Shown here one piece after another: positions 19,595 to 27,559 of a stretch of 64,000 nucleotides of DNA. Under the pieces are notes generated by a model, which did not search any database, was not told the origin of the DNA, and was given only the letters and a program-made list of their open reading frames with translations. How positions within the stretch are numbered: the first letter of the stretch is position 1; each line of letters begins with the position of its first letter. Origin of the DNA: the human T2T-CHM13v2.0 reference genome, Homo sapiens. A program made the translations under genes and the position numbers. The stretch lies in NCBI GenBank assembly GCA_009914755.4, contig CP068257.2, forward strand, positions 2,528,001-2,592,000, written 5' to 3'.

Positions 19595-19608
19595 AAAACA
19601 CTCTTGGC
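19595..19608. repeat. Left target-site duplication of the twin-primed L1 (aaaacactcttggc)
   Basis: The same 14-mer is found at 23022-23035, directly after the L1 poly-A. Confidence 0.7.
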
Positions 19609-21817
19609 TTCTTAATTTTTGTAAACCATTTATTAAATAGGCAATCCTTTCCCCATTGCTTGTTTTAGTCAGCTTTGTCAAAGATCAGATGGTTGTAGAT
19701 ATGTGACATTATTTCTGAGGGCTCTGTTCTGTTCCATGGGTCTATATCTCTGTTTTGGTACCAGTGTCATTCTGTTTTGGTTACTGTAGCCTTGTAGTAT
19801 AGTTTGAAGTCAGGTAGTGTGTAATGCCTCCGGCTCTGTTCTTTTAGCTTAGGATTGACTTGGCGATGTAGGCTCTTTTTTGGTTCCATATAAAACTTAA
19901 AGTATTTTTTTTTTCCAATTCAGTGAAGAAAGTCATTGGTATCTTGATGAGGATGGCATTGAATGTATAAATGACCTTGGGTAGTATGTTCATTTTCACG
20001 ATATTGATTCTTCCTACCCATGAACATGGAAAGTTCTTCCATTTGTTTGTATCTTATTTTATTTCATTGAGCAGCTGTTTGTAGTTCTCCTTGAAGAGGT
20101 CCTTCACATCCCTTGTAAGTCGAATTCCTAGGTATTTTATTCTCTTTGAAGCAATTGTGAATGGGGGTTCACTCATGATTTGGCTCACTGTTTGTTATTG
20201 GTGTATAAGAATACTTGTGATTTTTGCACATTGATTTTGTATCCTGAGGCTTTGCTGAAGTTGCTTATCAGCCTAAGGAGATTTTGGGCTGAGACAATGG
20301 GGTTTTCTAGATATACGATCATGTCATCTGCAAACAGGGACAATTTGACTTCCTCTTTTCCTAATAGAATATCTTTATTTCCTTCTCCTGCCTAATTGCC
20401 CTGGCCAGAACTTCCAACACTATATTGAATAGGAGTGGTGAGAGAGGGCATCCCTGTCTTGTGCCAGTTTTCAAAGGGAATGCTTCCAGTTTTTGTCCTT
20501 TCATTATGATATTGGCTGTGTGTTTGTCATAGATAGCTCGTATTATTTTGAGATACGTCCCATCAATACCTAATTTATTGAGAGTCTTTAGCATGAAGAG
20601 TTGTTGAATTTTGTCAAAGGCCTTTTCTGCATCTATTGAAATAATCATATGGTTTTTGTCTTTGGTTCTGTTTACATGCTGGATTACATTTATTGATTTG
20701 CGTATGTCGAACCAGCCTTGCATCCCAGGGATGAAGCCCACTTGATCATGGTGGATAAGTTTTTGATGTGCTGCTAGATTTGGTTTGCCAGTATTTTATT
20801 GAGGATTTTTGCATCAATGTTTATCAAGGATATTGGTCTAAAATTCTCTTTCTTGGTGGTGTCTCTGCCAGGCTTTGGTATCAGGATGATGCTGGCCTCA
20901 TAAAATGAGTTAGGGAGGATTCCCTCTTTTTCTATTGATTGGAATAGTTTCAGAAGGAATGGTACCAGTTCCTCCTTGTACCTCTGCTAAAATTTGGCTG
21001 TGAATCCTTCTGGTCCTGGACTTTTTTTGGTTGGTAAGCTATTGATTATTGCCACAATTTCAGAGATTGTTATTGGTCTATTTGGAGATTCAACTTCTTC
21101 GTGGTTTAGTCTTGGGAGGTTGTATGTGTCGAGGAATTTATCCATTTCTTCTAGATTTTCTAGTTTATTTGCATAGAGGTGTTTTTAGTATTCTCTGATG
21201 GTAGTTTGTATTTCTGTGGGATCCGTGGCGATATCCCCTTTATCATTTTTTTATTGTGTCTATTTGATTCTTCTCTCTTTTCTTCTTTATTTGTCTCGCT
21301 AGTGGTCTATCAATTTTGTTGATCTTTTCAAAAAAACAGGTCCTGGATTCATTAATTTTTTGAAGGGTTTTTTGTGTCTCTATTTCCTTCAGTTCTGTTC
21401 CGATTTTAGTTATTTCTTGCCTTCTGCTAGCTTTTGAATGTGTTTGCTCTTGCTTTTCTAGTTCTTTTAATTGTGATGTTAGGGTGTCAATTTTGGATCT
21501 TTCCTGTTTTCTCTTGTGGGCATTTAGTGCTATAAATTTCCCTCTACACACTGCTTTGAATGTGTCCCAGATATTCTGGTATGCTGTGTCTTTGCTCTCA
21601 TTGGTTTCAAAGAACATCTTTATTTCTGCCTTCGTTTTGTTATGTACCCAGTAGTCATTCAGGAGCAGGTTGTTCAGTTCCCATGTAGTTGAGCGGTTTT
21701 GAGTGAGTTTCTTAATCCTGAGTTTTAGTTTGATTGCACTGTGGTCTGAGAGACAGTTTGTTATAATTTCTGTTCTTTTACATTTGCTGAGGAGTGCTTT
21801 ACTTCCAACTATGTGGT
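19609..21817 (-). mobile_element. L1PA, inverted 5' segment of a twin-primed (5'-inverted) insertion; ORF2 from about aa 230 to 870
   Basis: Minus-strand ORFs are L1 ORF2 RT ([21 protein letters not shown]…, …[27 protein letters not shown]…). The reverse complement of 19628-19647 is 'ggattgcctatttaataaat', which matches …GKDSLFNKW. Confidence 0.8.
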
Positions 21818-24920: not shown

Positions 24921-27559
24921 ACACTTTTTAAACTAATTATTAGTGCCTGAATTAAGTTATACAGTAAGTGAACTAAAGTTCACAGGGCACAGATAAGTTT
25001 ATCAAACTTTACTATTTTATCTTGTCATTTACAACATCCATATAAGCAATTAGCCATATAAGCAAAATTCATATAACCACTTAAATGTACATTTGTCCTT
25101 GTCTCCATATATTCATACTAAGATGCACAGAAAATACAGCAAAAGAAACATTGAAAGTCAATAAAAATAAATCTGACAATATACATTTTTTATGCCCTTC
25201 AGGACCTAGATACAAAAAATGTTGAGAAAACATGGATAGTGGTGCATACATTTTCTAATATGTGAATAGCCTAAATCACATGAAAGAACTAATGAACGGT
25301 GACATGTCATAGAAAATTCATCTTTTATTGTTTTCTTTGATGAAGAATCTGAATTTGTTGATATGTACTATACATTCAGCATTTGTATTTGGTTTGTTTC
25401 ATAGCTAATGATATGTTTATACATGAACAAAGAGTACAGTGTTGAAATAGTCTGTGTGCTGACATTCATAGTTTTTAAAAATACCATTGCAGGCAATGAA
25501 GTTGTGCCAGAAAAATCTGATTTCTTGTACAAAAGGAATACTTAGCCAGGGCCTCAAGCTCAATATATTTATTAAAAATGTCCTACATTGCCATAAAAAC
25601 ATGATAACGTTAAATAATTTATTTCTATAAATTAAGAATTAAAAATAAAAATGATATCTTTTATGGATTAAGGAAGTGCTGATGAGACAGAATGGCGATT
25701 GAAGACAAAAATTCCAAATTCAGGTAAATAATTTTACTCATATTTGTTTTATTTTAGAGAAAACAATACTTTTGACCATATACTATTTATTGCAGTGGAG
25801 TATTTCAAAAATATATACACAATATATAATTAATTTTCTAATGGCATAAAAGTAATCACATTCTACAGATTATTACAATATGGTCTATTGATGAGAGGGG
25901 TGTTTCAAATGAAAAAACTTGGAATTTCTCATGAGATAGTGATAGATGCCATAGAAAATCTCTGTAAAGTATTTCACTCATATATGCAACTATGGATATT
26001 TCTGCTTTTCAGAAAAATAATTTACTTTAAATACTTAATGCAGACAATTAAAATCACCAAGAAGTTACAAGAATTCACAGAATGCCTAATATAGTTGAAA
26101 TGAAATTAATAAAATTTCCCAGGACTGGAAGTAAATAAAGGTAATGAGCTGGAGAAGAAATCAACCTAACAGGCCAGGGCTCCACTCAGATGCGTCTGAT
26201 CACAAGAATGTCAGGTCCATGTGGGTTGTTCCCTTCTGACAAGGCAAATGGAATAAACAAAGAGGAACTGCCTGCAGGCATTGGAATGTGGTGTCTCCCA
26301 TATGTGATGATTAAATTATAGATTATGTTGCACACAAAGAGATGAGCTACTGGGGTGAAGCATCAGAAGAAATATGGCACATAAATCTCAGATATTGAAT
26401 TTACATTTAAATGTTTAAGTCAATATAATGGAAAAACAAGAAACCAAAATAATGTAGAAAGAAACTACGAGCTTGTCAAGTTATCTTTGGAAAAGAGGCA
26501 AATGAAAAGTAAAGTATTGAAAGTGTTGTAAAACAATTTAATGTACAACATATAAGTTACATATTAAAATAGGCTGAGCCGAAAAGAGGACTAGTAAAGT
26601 GAAATGCTGATCACAATTAATGTAGTCATATATGTTATACAAGGCAAATTAATAGAAAATATAAATATATTTATATATGAAGGTTAGATTGAGAGGAAAT
26701 AAAAGACATTCAATTGTTTTACTAGACTCTTTAAACAGGAAGGCAATAGTCAAAGAATCAGTGACTCGTAAGTTTCAGAAATTGGAAACCAGACATGAAT
26801 CCTTTAAAAGTTTAGGGTGTAATATATGAAAAAAAGGTAAATTAAGAAATACTAAGAAGAAATAATGGTTTTGGTTATTATGAATACTGCTTAAAAAACA
26901 TGAAAGTGCAGTTATCTTTTTGACTTGCTTGTTTTATTTCCTTTTGATATAAACCCAGTAATGAGATTGCTGCATCATATGGTAGTTTTATTTGTAATTA
27001 ATTGAAAAACCTCCATGCTGTTCTCCCTATAGAAATGGGAAATGATTATAGTAATTTACATTCCTACCAACAGTGTATAAGGGCCCATCTACAGAATGAA
27101 TAAAGAAAATGCTATACACACACGCACACTCACACGCACACACACACAGGAATAATGTTCAGTCATAAAACAGAATGAAGTTCCGTAATTTGTGTCAACA
27201 TGGATGACTGTAGAGGACATTATGTTAAGTGGAATAAGCCAGTCACAGAAAGACAAAGACCACGTGCTCTCACTCATGTGACATCTGAAGAAGTCCATCT
27301 CATACAAGTAGGGAGTAGGATTGTGGTTAACATAGGTTATCGATGGCAGAAGGATGAGAGAGTGGGGAGAGCTTTGTCACTGGGTACAAAATTACAGTTA
27401 GGAAGAATAAATCCTGGTGTTCTATTACACAGTACGATGACTATAGCTAATAATAATGTACCGTTTATTCTATAATAGCTTGAACAGAGGATTTTGAACT
27501 TTATTAGACAAGGAAATAAATATTTAAATTTTTAAATATGCTAATCACTCTGGTTGGAT

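What the first reader, a model, noticed from the sequence alone, without database searches (positions are those of the whole stretch)
19595..24928. One TTAAAA target site used twice: an AGGF1 retrocopy, then a twin-primed L1 inserted exactly into the retrocopy's 5' TSD
The L1 has a 5' inversion: a minus-strand ORF2 segment at 19609-21817 and a plus-strand ORF2 C-terminus, 3'UTR and poly-A at 21818-23021. It is flanked by a perfect 14-bp TSD 'aaaacactcttggc' (19595-19608 and 23022-23035). The right-hand copy runs straight into the AGGF1-derived cDNA, which starts at about 23033. That retrocopy ends at about 24910 and is followed by 'ttaaaaaaacactttt', the same motif with one mismatch. The simplest order of events is therefore this. 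First, an L1-mediated AGGF1 retrocopy inserted at …gatttAAAACACTCTT|taaac…. Second, an L1 landed at the same TT|AAAA nick site and duplicated the old TSD plus the first 3 nt of the retrocopy. This is a clean natural example of L1 endonuclease hotspot re-use, and of twin priming (the inversion junction skips about 90 nt of L1).
Basis: partly seen in the sequence, partly recalled or inferred. Interest (0 to 1): 0.55.

Follow-up and report, generated by a model that had tools for sequence, protein, structure and literature searches.

The report
Inverted L1 beside old AGGF1 pseudogene
A young L1 element with an inverted front half landed at the front edge of a much older dead copy of the AGGF1 gene; this is an ordinary nested-repeat arrangement, and the evidence offered that both used the very same cut site does not hold.

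Summary
Confirmed. A 5'-truncated L1PA with a 5' inversion lies here. The inverted arm is about 19625-21821 (ORF2p residues D205-W935). The direct arm runs from 21820 to the A-rich tail ending at 23021. A perfect 14-bp TSD, AAAACACTCTTGGC, flanks it behind a TTT|AAAA cut site. The right-hand TSD copy abuts an intron-less AGGF1 copy starting at about 23033, roughly the parental transcription start.

Wrong. The retrocopy does not end at 24910. Homology to the AGGF1 last exon and 3'UTR continues to 25611-25614, 22 nt after the parental proximal AATAAA. The proposed 3' TSD (24913-24928) aligns to a motif conserved in the AGGF1 3'UTR of six primates, so it is parental sequence. No TSD is recognisable after the true 3' end. 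The two L1 arms are 60 nt apart in L1 coordinates, not 90, and they share a 12-nt overlap.

Order of events. The retrocopy arose on the anthropoid stem and has about 11% private divergence. The L1 has about 3%. So the L1 inserted later, and its TSD covers the first few retrocopy bases.

Exact re-use of one nick remains possible (about 15%) but is unsupported. This is ordinary, known biology.

The parts
19590..19594 (+). Upstream flank GATTT. With the following AAAA it forms the L1 endonuclease site TTT|AAAA (bottom strand 5'-TTTT/AAAT).
   Evidence: Read directly from the sequence.
19595..19608 (+). 5' copy of the L1 target-site duplication, AAAACACTCTTGGC. Because the poly-A abuts the AAAA, the TSD is 10-14 bp.
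   Evidence: Exact 14-mer with only two copies in the 64-kb window.
19609..19624 (-). 16 nt at the start of the inverted cDNA. Positions 19612-19623 are the exact reverse complement of TACAAAAATTAA, the first 12 nt of the direct arm. This is read as an overlap of the two cDNAs.
   Evidence: The 12-mer occurs only at 21821 (+) and 19612 (-) in the window. Chance is about 1e-4. See also the alignment.
19625..21821 (-). Inverted L1 arm: ORF2 codons about I204/D205 to W935, decayed by stops and frameshifts.
   Evidence: 93% identity to the L1 copy at 37565-39760. ORF2p coordinates from PDB 8UW3. ORF fragments listed.
21820..22982 (+). Direct L1 arm: ORF2 from about Y956/T957 to the stop codon at 22775-22777, then the 3'UTR. 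Positions 21820-21821 (AT) are microhomology shared with the inverted arm.
   Evidence: 91.7% identity to the L1 copy at 39821-41014.. ORF 22166-22777.
22983..23021 (+). L1 A-rich tail, interrupted by GAATTCCGG.
23022..23035 (+). 3' copy of the L1 TSD. Its last roughly 2-6 nt (GGC, possibly CTTGGC) are the first bases of the AGGF1 retrocopy.
23033..24044 (+). AGGF1 processed pseudogene, part 1: 5'UTR, exons 1-4 and the first 8-9 nt of exon 5 (green-monkey mRNA positions about 1-1046).
24038..24137 (+). Secondary duplicate of mRNA positions about 657-757 (end of exon 2 plus part of exon 3) inside the pseudogene.
   Evidence: Both copies share a 4-nt insertion and at least 4 substitutions that are absent from all AGGF1 orthologues.
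24129..25614 (+). AGGF1 processed pseudogene, part 2: part of exon 10 through exon 14 and 847 nt of 3'UTR (mRNA 1877-3344). It ends 22 nt after the parental proximal AATAAA.
   Evidence: No homology beyond this point.
24913..24928 (+). It is in fact conserved AGGF1 3'UTR sequence (parental form TTTTAAAAACCATTTTTT).
   Evidence: Six-species alignment. Pairwise alignment.
25615..25652 (+). AT-rich stretch, inferred to be the decayed poly-A tail of the retrocopy. No recognisable TSD follows it.

Best explanation
There were two separate L1-driven retrotransposition events of very different age, and they are nested at one spot.

1. On the anthropoid stem lineage, roughly 45-60 million years ago, a spliced AGGF1 mRNA was reverse-transcribed into the genome. 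It ran from about the transcription start to the proximal poly-A site. The resulting copy now spans about 23033-25614 plus a decayed tail, and it has since decayed. It also underwent a later genomic duplication/deletion that removed exons 5-10 and added a 100-nt duplicate.

2. Much later an L1PA element inserted. Its own divergence is about 3%, which I infer places it in the hominoid or catarrhine period.
- Its endonuclease nicked the bottom strand at TTT|AAAA, 11 nt upstream of the pseudogene's 5' end.
- The top strand was cut 14 nt downstream, about 3 nt inside the pseudogene.
- The insertion was completed by twin priming. One cDNA was primed from the poly-A and stopped at ORF2 codon about 956. 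A second cDNA was primed internally from the top-strand end about 12 nt 3' of that point. It copied those 12 nt, skipped 60 nt, and ran on to codon about 205.
- The two cDNAs were joined at a 2-nt AT microhomology.

Shown: the structure, the TSD, the coordinates and the relative ages.
Inferred: the priming steps and the absolute dates.

Whether the first event used the same nick cannot be determined from this sequence.
For: - TSD: an exact 14-mer, unique to the two flanks.
- L1 arms: their orientation, identity and ORF2p coordinates are established. They share a 12-nt overlap and a 2-nt junction microhomology. This matches published twin-priming features: inversions in 18% of germline L1 insertions and a median cDNA overlap of 12 bp (PMC12016303).
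- AGGF1 origin: protein hits with E=1e-154. Exon-by-exon collinearity with the bonobo gene, without introns. Collinearity with a green-monkey mRNA contig from its position 1 to 22 nt past its AATAAA.
- True 3' end: with no homology beyond it.
- Age of the retrocopy:
  - it shares 0 of 13 catarrhine-derived sites and 18 of 37 anthropoid-stem sites;
  - it differs at 11% of the sites where all six AGGF1 sequences agree;
  - it keeps an 8-bp segment that is deleted in all catarrhine AGGF1.
- Age of the L1: 2.8% private changes in a three-way comparison, and 6.4-7.4% pairwise divergence from another L1PA in the window.
Against: - No TSD can be found for the retrocopy. Its tail is AT-rich rather than A-rich. 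So L1-mediated origin of the pseudogene is inferred from its processed structure and its end at a poly-A site.
- The L1 subfamily could not be assigned, because no consensus library was available. Its age rests on comparison with only two other copies in the window.
- The 3 nt TTC (19609-19611) and the 60-nt skip at the start of the inverted arm are not explained in detail.
- No orthologous locus from another species could be examined.
Confidence: 0.8

Rival explanations
1. The AGGF1 retrocopy was itself inserted at the same TTT|AAAA nick with an 11-bp TSD (AAAACACTCTT). The L1 later re-used exactly that nick. The retrocopy's 3' TSD copy has since been lost or mutated beyond recognition.
For: - TTT|AAAA at 19592-19598 is the only good L1 endonuclease site in the 30 nt upstream of the retrocopy's 5' end. 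It lies at a typical TSD distance of 11 nt (inference).
- An insertion regenerates its own target site at the 5' TSD.
- Exact site re-use is documented elsewhere: three NF1 sites were each used twice (PMC3219598).
Against: - The only evidence offered, the motif at 24913-24928, is conserved parental 3'UTR sequence.
- After the true tail the sequence reads AAAATGATATCTTTT. Only 2 of the 7 non-A TSD positions match without a gap.
- There is no match to AAAACACTCTTGG with 3 or fewer mismatches between 24931 and 27066.
- Local alignment of the 5' flank to the 3' flank is no better than shuffled controls (p=0.15-0.65).
- At about 11% divergence per copy, a true TSD should usually still be recognisable.
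Confidence: 0.15
2. The L1 came first. The L1 inserted with an 11-bp TSD, and the AGGF1 retrocopy later inserted at the L1's 3' TSD and poly-A. The GGC on both sides would be coincidental or L1-derived.
For: - L1 antisense sequence near the priming point reads ...ATGGCTAGCC..., so a GGC could in principle come from the L1.
- Poly-A tails are frequent targets for new insertions (general knowledge).
Against: - The retrocopy is three to four times more diverged than the L1: 11% private divergence versus about 3%.
- The retrocopy predates catarrhine-specific AGGF1 changes, including an 8-bp deletion. The L1 is 93% identical to a near-intact L1PA copy.
- This model needs the GGC match to arise by chance (1 in 64).
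- No retrocopy TSD of the form A(n)CACTCTT is found at the 3' end.
Confidence: 0.03
3. The two L1 arms are two independent head-to-head L1 insertions, not one twin-primed event.
For: Opposite orientation alone would be compatible with this reading.
Against: - The inverted arm has no 3' end and no poly-T at 19609.
- The arms are adjacent in L1 coordinates (W935 and Y956) and share a 12-nt overlap.
- Both arms show similar divergence from the same reference copy, 6.4% and 7.4%.
- One perfect TSD brackets both arms.
Confidence: 0.02

Closest known systems
L1 insertions with 5' inversion formed by twin priming (Ostertag & Kazazian 2001, as cited in PMC12016303)
   Same: - 5'-truncated L1 with the 5' part inverted.
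- A single TSD, a TTTT/A-type cut site, and a poly-A tail only on the direct arm.
- Short overlap between the two cDNAs (12 nt here; published median 12 bp).
- Microhomology at the inversion junction.
   Different: An extra 60-nt skip lies directly after the 12-nt overlap in the inverted arm, and 3 nt (TTC) next to the TSD are unexplained. These are minor variations within the range described for such events.
L1-mediated processed pseudogenes (human AGGF1P pseudogenes are annotated; the name occurs in the literature)
   Same: - Intron-less copy of the AGGF1 mRNA, running from about the transcription start to 22 nt past an AAUAAA.
- Inactivated by stops and frameshifts.
   Different: - No recognisable TSD, and the tail is AT-rich rather than a clean poly-A.
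- A later genomic rearrangement removed exons 5-10 and duplicated 100 nt.
Re-used L1 endonuclease integration sites (NF1 hotspots, Wimmer et al. 2011, PMC3219598)
   Same: Two L1-machinery insertions lie within 14 bp of each other at a consensus TTT|AAAA site.
   Different: In NF1 both insertions could be mapped to the identical nucleotide. Here the older insertion's nick site cannot be mapped, so identity of the two sites is not shown.

Membership tests
Twin-primed (5'-inverted) L1 insertion | Two L1 segments in opposite orientation, with the 5' one inverted, that are adjacent in L1 coordinates | tested here: met
   The inverted arm covers ORF2p D205-W935 and the direct arm runs from Y956/T957 to the 3' end.
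Twin-primed (5'-inverted) L1 insertion | One target-site duplication brackets the whole structure, at an L1 endonuclease consensus site | tested here: met
   Perfect 14-bp repeat, unique to the two flanks, preceded by GATTT (TTT|AAAA).
Twin-primed (5'-inverted) L1 insertion | Poly-A tail only at the 3' end of the direct arm; the inverted arm has none | tested here: met
   A-rich tail at 22983-23021. The left end at 19609 lies inside ORF2 and has no poly-T.
Twin-primed (5'-inverted) L1 insertion | Small overlap or gap between the two cDNAs, and microhomology at the inversion junction | tested here: met
   12-nt overlap, 60-nt gap, and AT microhomology at 21820-21821. Published overlap median is 12 bp.
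Processed pseudogene of AGGF1 | Collinear with the spliced parental mRNA and lacking introns | tested here: met
   Exon-by-exon hits to the bonobo gene L001 and continuous alignment to the green-monkey mRNA contig L006.
Processed pseudogene of AGGF1 | 3' end at a parental polyadenylation site, followed by a poly-A tail | tested here: inconclusive
   Homology ends 22 nt after the conserved proximal AATAAA. What follows is a 38-nt AT-rich stretch, not a clean poly-A.
Processed pseudogene of AGGF1 | Flanking target-site duplication | tested here: not met
   The proposed TSD is parental 3'UTR sequence. No significant repeat links the 5' flank to the true 3' flank. At this age, loss of a recognisable TSD is common, so the pseudogene call stands on the other features.
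Exactly re-used L1 endonuclease site (hotspot) | Two independent insertion events | tested here: met
   Private divergence is about 11% for the retrocopy and about 3% for the L1. The retrocopy predates catarrhine-specific AGGF1 changes.
Exactly re-used L1 endonuclease site (hotspot) | The TSDs of both events start at the same nucleotide | tested here: not met
   No second copy of AAAACACTCTT follows the true retrocopy 3' end. The motif cited for this is inside the retrocopy and conserved in the parent gene.

The most novel reading that the evidence does not exclude
The L1 did re-use the very nick (TTT|AAAA at 19594|19595) that the AGGF1 retrocopy used some 30 million years earlier. The retrocopy's 3' TSD has simply eroded. 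This would be a natural example of a target site that an insertion regenerates and that stays attractive to L1 endonuclease over deep time.
Probability: 0.15. Interest if true: 0.3.

Novelty: already known. Interest (0 to 1): 0.08.

Why it matters
It matters little beyond annotation. The locus is a textbook nested arrangement: a twin-primed L1PA at the 5' edge of an old AGGF1 processed pseudogene.

The useful outcome is corrective.
- Its supposed TSD is parental 3'UTR sequence.
- The attractive 'hotspot re-use' story therefore has no support in this sequence.

Even if the re-use were true, it would only add one more case to a phenomenon already documented in NF1.

The locus does give a clean worked example of twin-priming fine structure: a 12-nt cDNA overlap and a 2-nt junction microhomology. 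It also shows how a rare 8-bp deletion in the parent gene can date a retrocopy.

Tried and rejected
1. I looked for the retrocopy's real TSD.
   - Local alignment of the 64 or 25 nt upstream of the 5' end against the 100-165 nt after the true 3' end gave nothing better than shuffles.
   - A search for the 13-mer AAAACACTCTTGG with up to 3 mismatches found no hit between 24931 and 27066.
2. I tested whether AGGF1 homology runs past the proximal poly-A site, because green-monkey transcripts have 3'UTRs up to 1955 nt. Free local alignments and constrained alignments against five species were both at chance level. A MAFFT alignment had looked suggestive, but it was not significant.
3. I considered that the internal exon-3 duplicate arose by splicing or by reverse-transcriptase template switching. 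I rejected this for two reasons. The junctions are not at exon borders. Both copies also share a frameshifting 4-nt insertion and several substitutions absent from all AGGF1 genes. The duplication therefore happened in the genome long after insertion.
4. I at first took the AATAAAGTG at 24893 for an insertion in the retrocopy. The six-species alignment shows it is ancestral and was deleted in catarrhines.
5. I tried to reach orthologous or other copies of the locus by exact look-up of a junction-spanning ORF (19446-19640). Nothing is on record. The third large protein search was not spent on this low-odds route.
6. An alternative reading of the 16 nt at 19609-19624 as hypermutated contiguous L1 (GCTGGGAAAACTGGCTA) was rejected. 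It gives only 7 matches in 16. The inverted-overlap reading gives an exact 12-mer that is unique in the window.
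Full report
**Checking the observation**

I read 19300-25300 directly. AAAACACTCTTGGC occupies 19595-19608 and 23022-23035, and these are the only two copies of that 14-mer on either strand of the 64-kb window. 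The left copy is preceded by GATTT, so the inferred bottom-strand nick lies in a consensus TTT|AAAA site. The right copy is preceded by an A-rich tail (22983-23021, interrupted by GAATTCCGG). An exact 14-mer at both ends of one element is far beyond chance, so this is a genuine L1 target-site duplication. Because the poly-A runs into the AAAA, its length is 10-14 bp.

**The L1**

BLASTN of 19609-23021 against the window found a near-full-length L1PA on the plus strand at about 35.8-41.0 kb.
- 19625-21821 matches its 39760-37565 in reverse at 93.0% identity.
- 21820-23011 matches its 39821-41014 in forward orientation at 91.7% identity.

Translated fragments match human ORF2p (PDB 8UW3). The inverted arm runs from D205 to W935. 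The direct arm starts at Y956/T957 and continues to the stop codon at 22775-22777.

The arms are therefore 60 nt apart in L1 coordinates (C936-P955), not about 90. They join at 21820/21821, where AT can belong to either arm.

The 16 nt between the 5' TSD and solid L1 homology (19609-19624, TTCTTAATTTTTGTAA) contain the exact reverse complement of TACAAAAATTAA, the first 12 nt of the direct arm. That 12-mer occurs only at those two places in the window, with a chance expectation of about 1e-4. The internally primed cDNA therefore overlapped the poly-A-primed cDNA by about 12 nt and then skipped 60 nt.

Several features support a single twin-primed insertion:
- One TSD brackets both arms.
- The inverted arm has no poly-T.
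- The arms are adjacent in L1 coordinates.
- Their divergence from the reference copy is similar, 6.4% and 7.4%.

A recent long-read survey reports 5' inversions in 18% of germline L1 insertions and a median cDNA overlap of 12 bp (PMC12016303). The structure here is typical. From memory of the L1.3 coordinates, D205 corresponds to about nt 2600 of a 6-kb element.

**The AGGF1 copy and its true extent**

A stitched translation of 23430-24750 hits AGGF1 orthologues at E=1e-154. I fetched these reference sequences:
- the bonobo AGGF1 gene (L001);
- the macaque, capuchin, tarsier and lemur genes (L002-L005);
- green-monkey transcript contigs from Logan (L006-L008).

The window sequence is collinear with the exons and lacks introns. 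Homology starts at 23034-23039. That is 356 nt upstream of the bonobo ATG and 12-15 nt upstream of the first bases of the transcript contigs.

The 3' boundary is wrong. The last-exon alignment runs without interruption from 24545 to 25611-25614, which corresponds to L001 39772-40815 and mRNA contig position 3344. That point is 22 nt after an AATAAA conserved in all six species, a normal cleavage distance. Beyond it, neither free local alignments nor constrained alignments to five species exceed shuffled controls. A 38-nt AT-rich stretch (25615-25652) is probably the decayed tail.

**The proposed retrocopy TSD**

The motif at 24913-24928 lies 700 nt inside the retrocopy. In a six-species alignment, the corresponding AGGF1 3'UTR reads GCAGCTTTTAAAAA(C/T)(C/T)ATTTTTT..AAACTAAT in bonobo, macaque, green-monkey mRNA, capuchin, tarsier and lemur. 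The motif is therefore inherited parental sequence.

Its resemblance to AAAACACTCTT is coincidental. Matches to that 11-mer with at most one mismatch occur five more times in the window, against 2.8 expected in shuffles.

The AATAAA at 24893, which presumably suggested a 3' end, is also ancestral 3'UTR sequence. It is present in capuchin, tarsier and lemur, and it was removed by an 8-bp deletion in catarrhines.

After the real 3' end I found no TSD.
- Local alignment of the 5' flank against the 3' flank is no better than shuffles (p=0.15-0.65).
- No match to AAAACACTCTTGG with 3 or fewer mismatches lies between 24931 and 27066.

**Relative ages and order of events**

I built an mRNA-anchored alignment of 2309 columns covering the retrocopy and the six AGGF1 sequences.
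- The retrocopy shares 0 of 13 catarrhine-derived states.
- It shares 18 of 37 anthropoid-stem states.
- It shares 84 of 92 decided haplorhine-versus-lemur states.
- It differs at 11% of the sites where all six AGGF1 sequences agree.
- Its K2P distance to catarrhine AGGF1 is 0.145-0.16.

It also retains the 8 bp deleted in catarrhines. I infer that it arose on the anthropoid stem, roughly 45-60 million years ago.

The L1 has about 2.8% private changes in a three-way comparison with two other L1 copies in the window. It is 6.4-7.4% diverged pairwise from the near-intact L1PA. Its own decay is therefore at most about a third of the retrocopy's.

The L1 thus inserted later, and its TSD includes the first bases of the older retrocopy. 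These are GGC, and possibly up to CTTGGC, because the parental sequence there is CTGGCGCC. The pre-L1 allele is recovered by joining 19608 to 23036.

**What remains of 'one site used twice'**

The L1 nick lies 11 nt upstream of the retrocopy's 5' end. It is the only good endonuclease site in the 30 nt upstream. An insertion regenerates its own target at its 5' TSD, so re-use is plausible a priori. Exact re-use is also documented elsewhere: three NF1 sites were each used twice (PMC3219598).

The evidence in this sequence points mildly the other way. The bases after the tail read AAAATGATATCTTTT, and only 2 of the 7 non-A TSD positions match without a gap. At about 11% divergence per copy, a true TSD should usually still be recognisable.

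I put the probability of exact re-use at about 15%. Only an outgroup empty site can settle it, and I could not reach one. An exact look-up of a junction-spanning ORF found nothing, and no primate genome search is available among the tools.

**Later history of the pseudogene**

The copy comprises mRNA positions 1 to about 1046, then a duplicate of about 657-757 (window 24038-24137), then 1877-3344.
- The junctions are not at exon borders, and one sits on a TCAA microhomology.
- Both copies of the duplicated piece share a 4-nt insertion and at least four substitutions that are absent from every AGGF1 orthologue.
- The two copies differ from each other by about 6%.

The duplication and deletion therefore occurred in genomic DNA long after retroposition, not during splicing or reverse transcription.

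**Verdict**

This is a twin-primed L1PA insertion at the 5' edge of an old, rearranged AGGF1 processed pseudogene. All the mechanisms involved are well known, and AGGF1 pseudogenes are already named in the literature. The hotspot re-use reading is unproven, and its stated evidence is refuted.

Noticed in passing
window 39-6057: A 48-bp tandem repeat array of about 126 copies at 74% match. The consensus unit is AGCAGTGTTCTGGAATCCTATGTGAGGGACAAACATTCAGACCACAGC. This satellite-like array suggests a pericentromeric or similarly repeat-rich setting. From memory only, it resembles the human 48-bp satellite. A minus-strand L1 fragment (about 6133-8174) abuts it.
   Followed up: partly
window 23648-23755 and 24038-24137: Inside the AGGF1 pseudogene, exons 5-10 (mRNA about 1047-1876) are missing and a 100-nt duplicate of the exon 2/3 region sits in their place. 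The two copies share a 4-nt insertion and several substitutions absent from all AGGF1 genes, and they differ from each other by about 6%. The rearrangement is therefore genomic and much younger than the pseudogene, roughly as old as the L1 insertion.
   Followed up: yes
window 24893-24901; L001 about 40108; L002 about 33571: The 8-bp segment ATAAAGT(G/A) of the AGGF1 3'UTR is present in capuchin, tarsier, lemur and the retrocopy. It is deleted in bonobo, macaque and green monkey. This catarrhine-specific deletion removes an internal AATAAA hexamer from the parent gene's 3'UTR, and it dates the retrocopy to before the catarrhine stem.
   Followed up: yes
L006-L008 (green-monkey AGGF1 transcript contigs): The assembled AGGF1 transcripts carry 3'UTRs of 1446-1955 nt, well past the proximal AATAAA at mRNA 3322 that the retrocopy's source mRNA used. 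AGGF1 therefore has at least two poly-A site choices.
   Followed up: partly
window about 35781-41014: A near-full-length plus-strand L1PA with long open ORF1 and ORF2 pieces (up to 477 aa) and a long A-rich tail. It has 2.3% private changes in the three-way comparison. It served here as the in-window L1 reference.
   Followed up: partly
window 51400-53000: Long overlapping ORFs on both strands, rich in His/Thr or Cys/Val, indicate a CA/TG-rich low-complexity tract of about 1.5 kb.
   Followed up: no
window 16290-17480 and 45300-47050: G+C-rich stretches with long overlapping ORFs on both strands (Pro/Gly/Arg-rich translations). They look like CpG islands and could be promoters or first exons of unannotated or non-coding genes.
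   Followed up: no
window 19609-19611 and 19625: Two small details of the inverted arm are unexplained. Three bases (TTC) between the TSD and the 12-nt overlap are not templated by L1. The 60-nt skip also begins at the same L1 position where the direct arm ends, which may reflect a break in the L1 RNA template at that point.
   Followed up: partly
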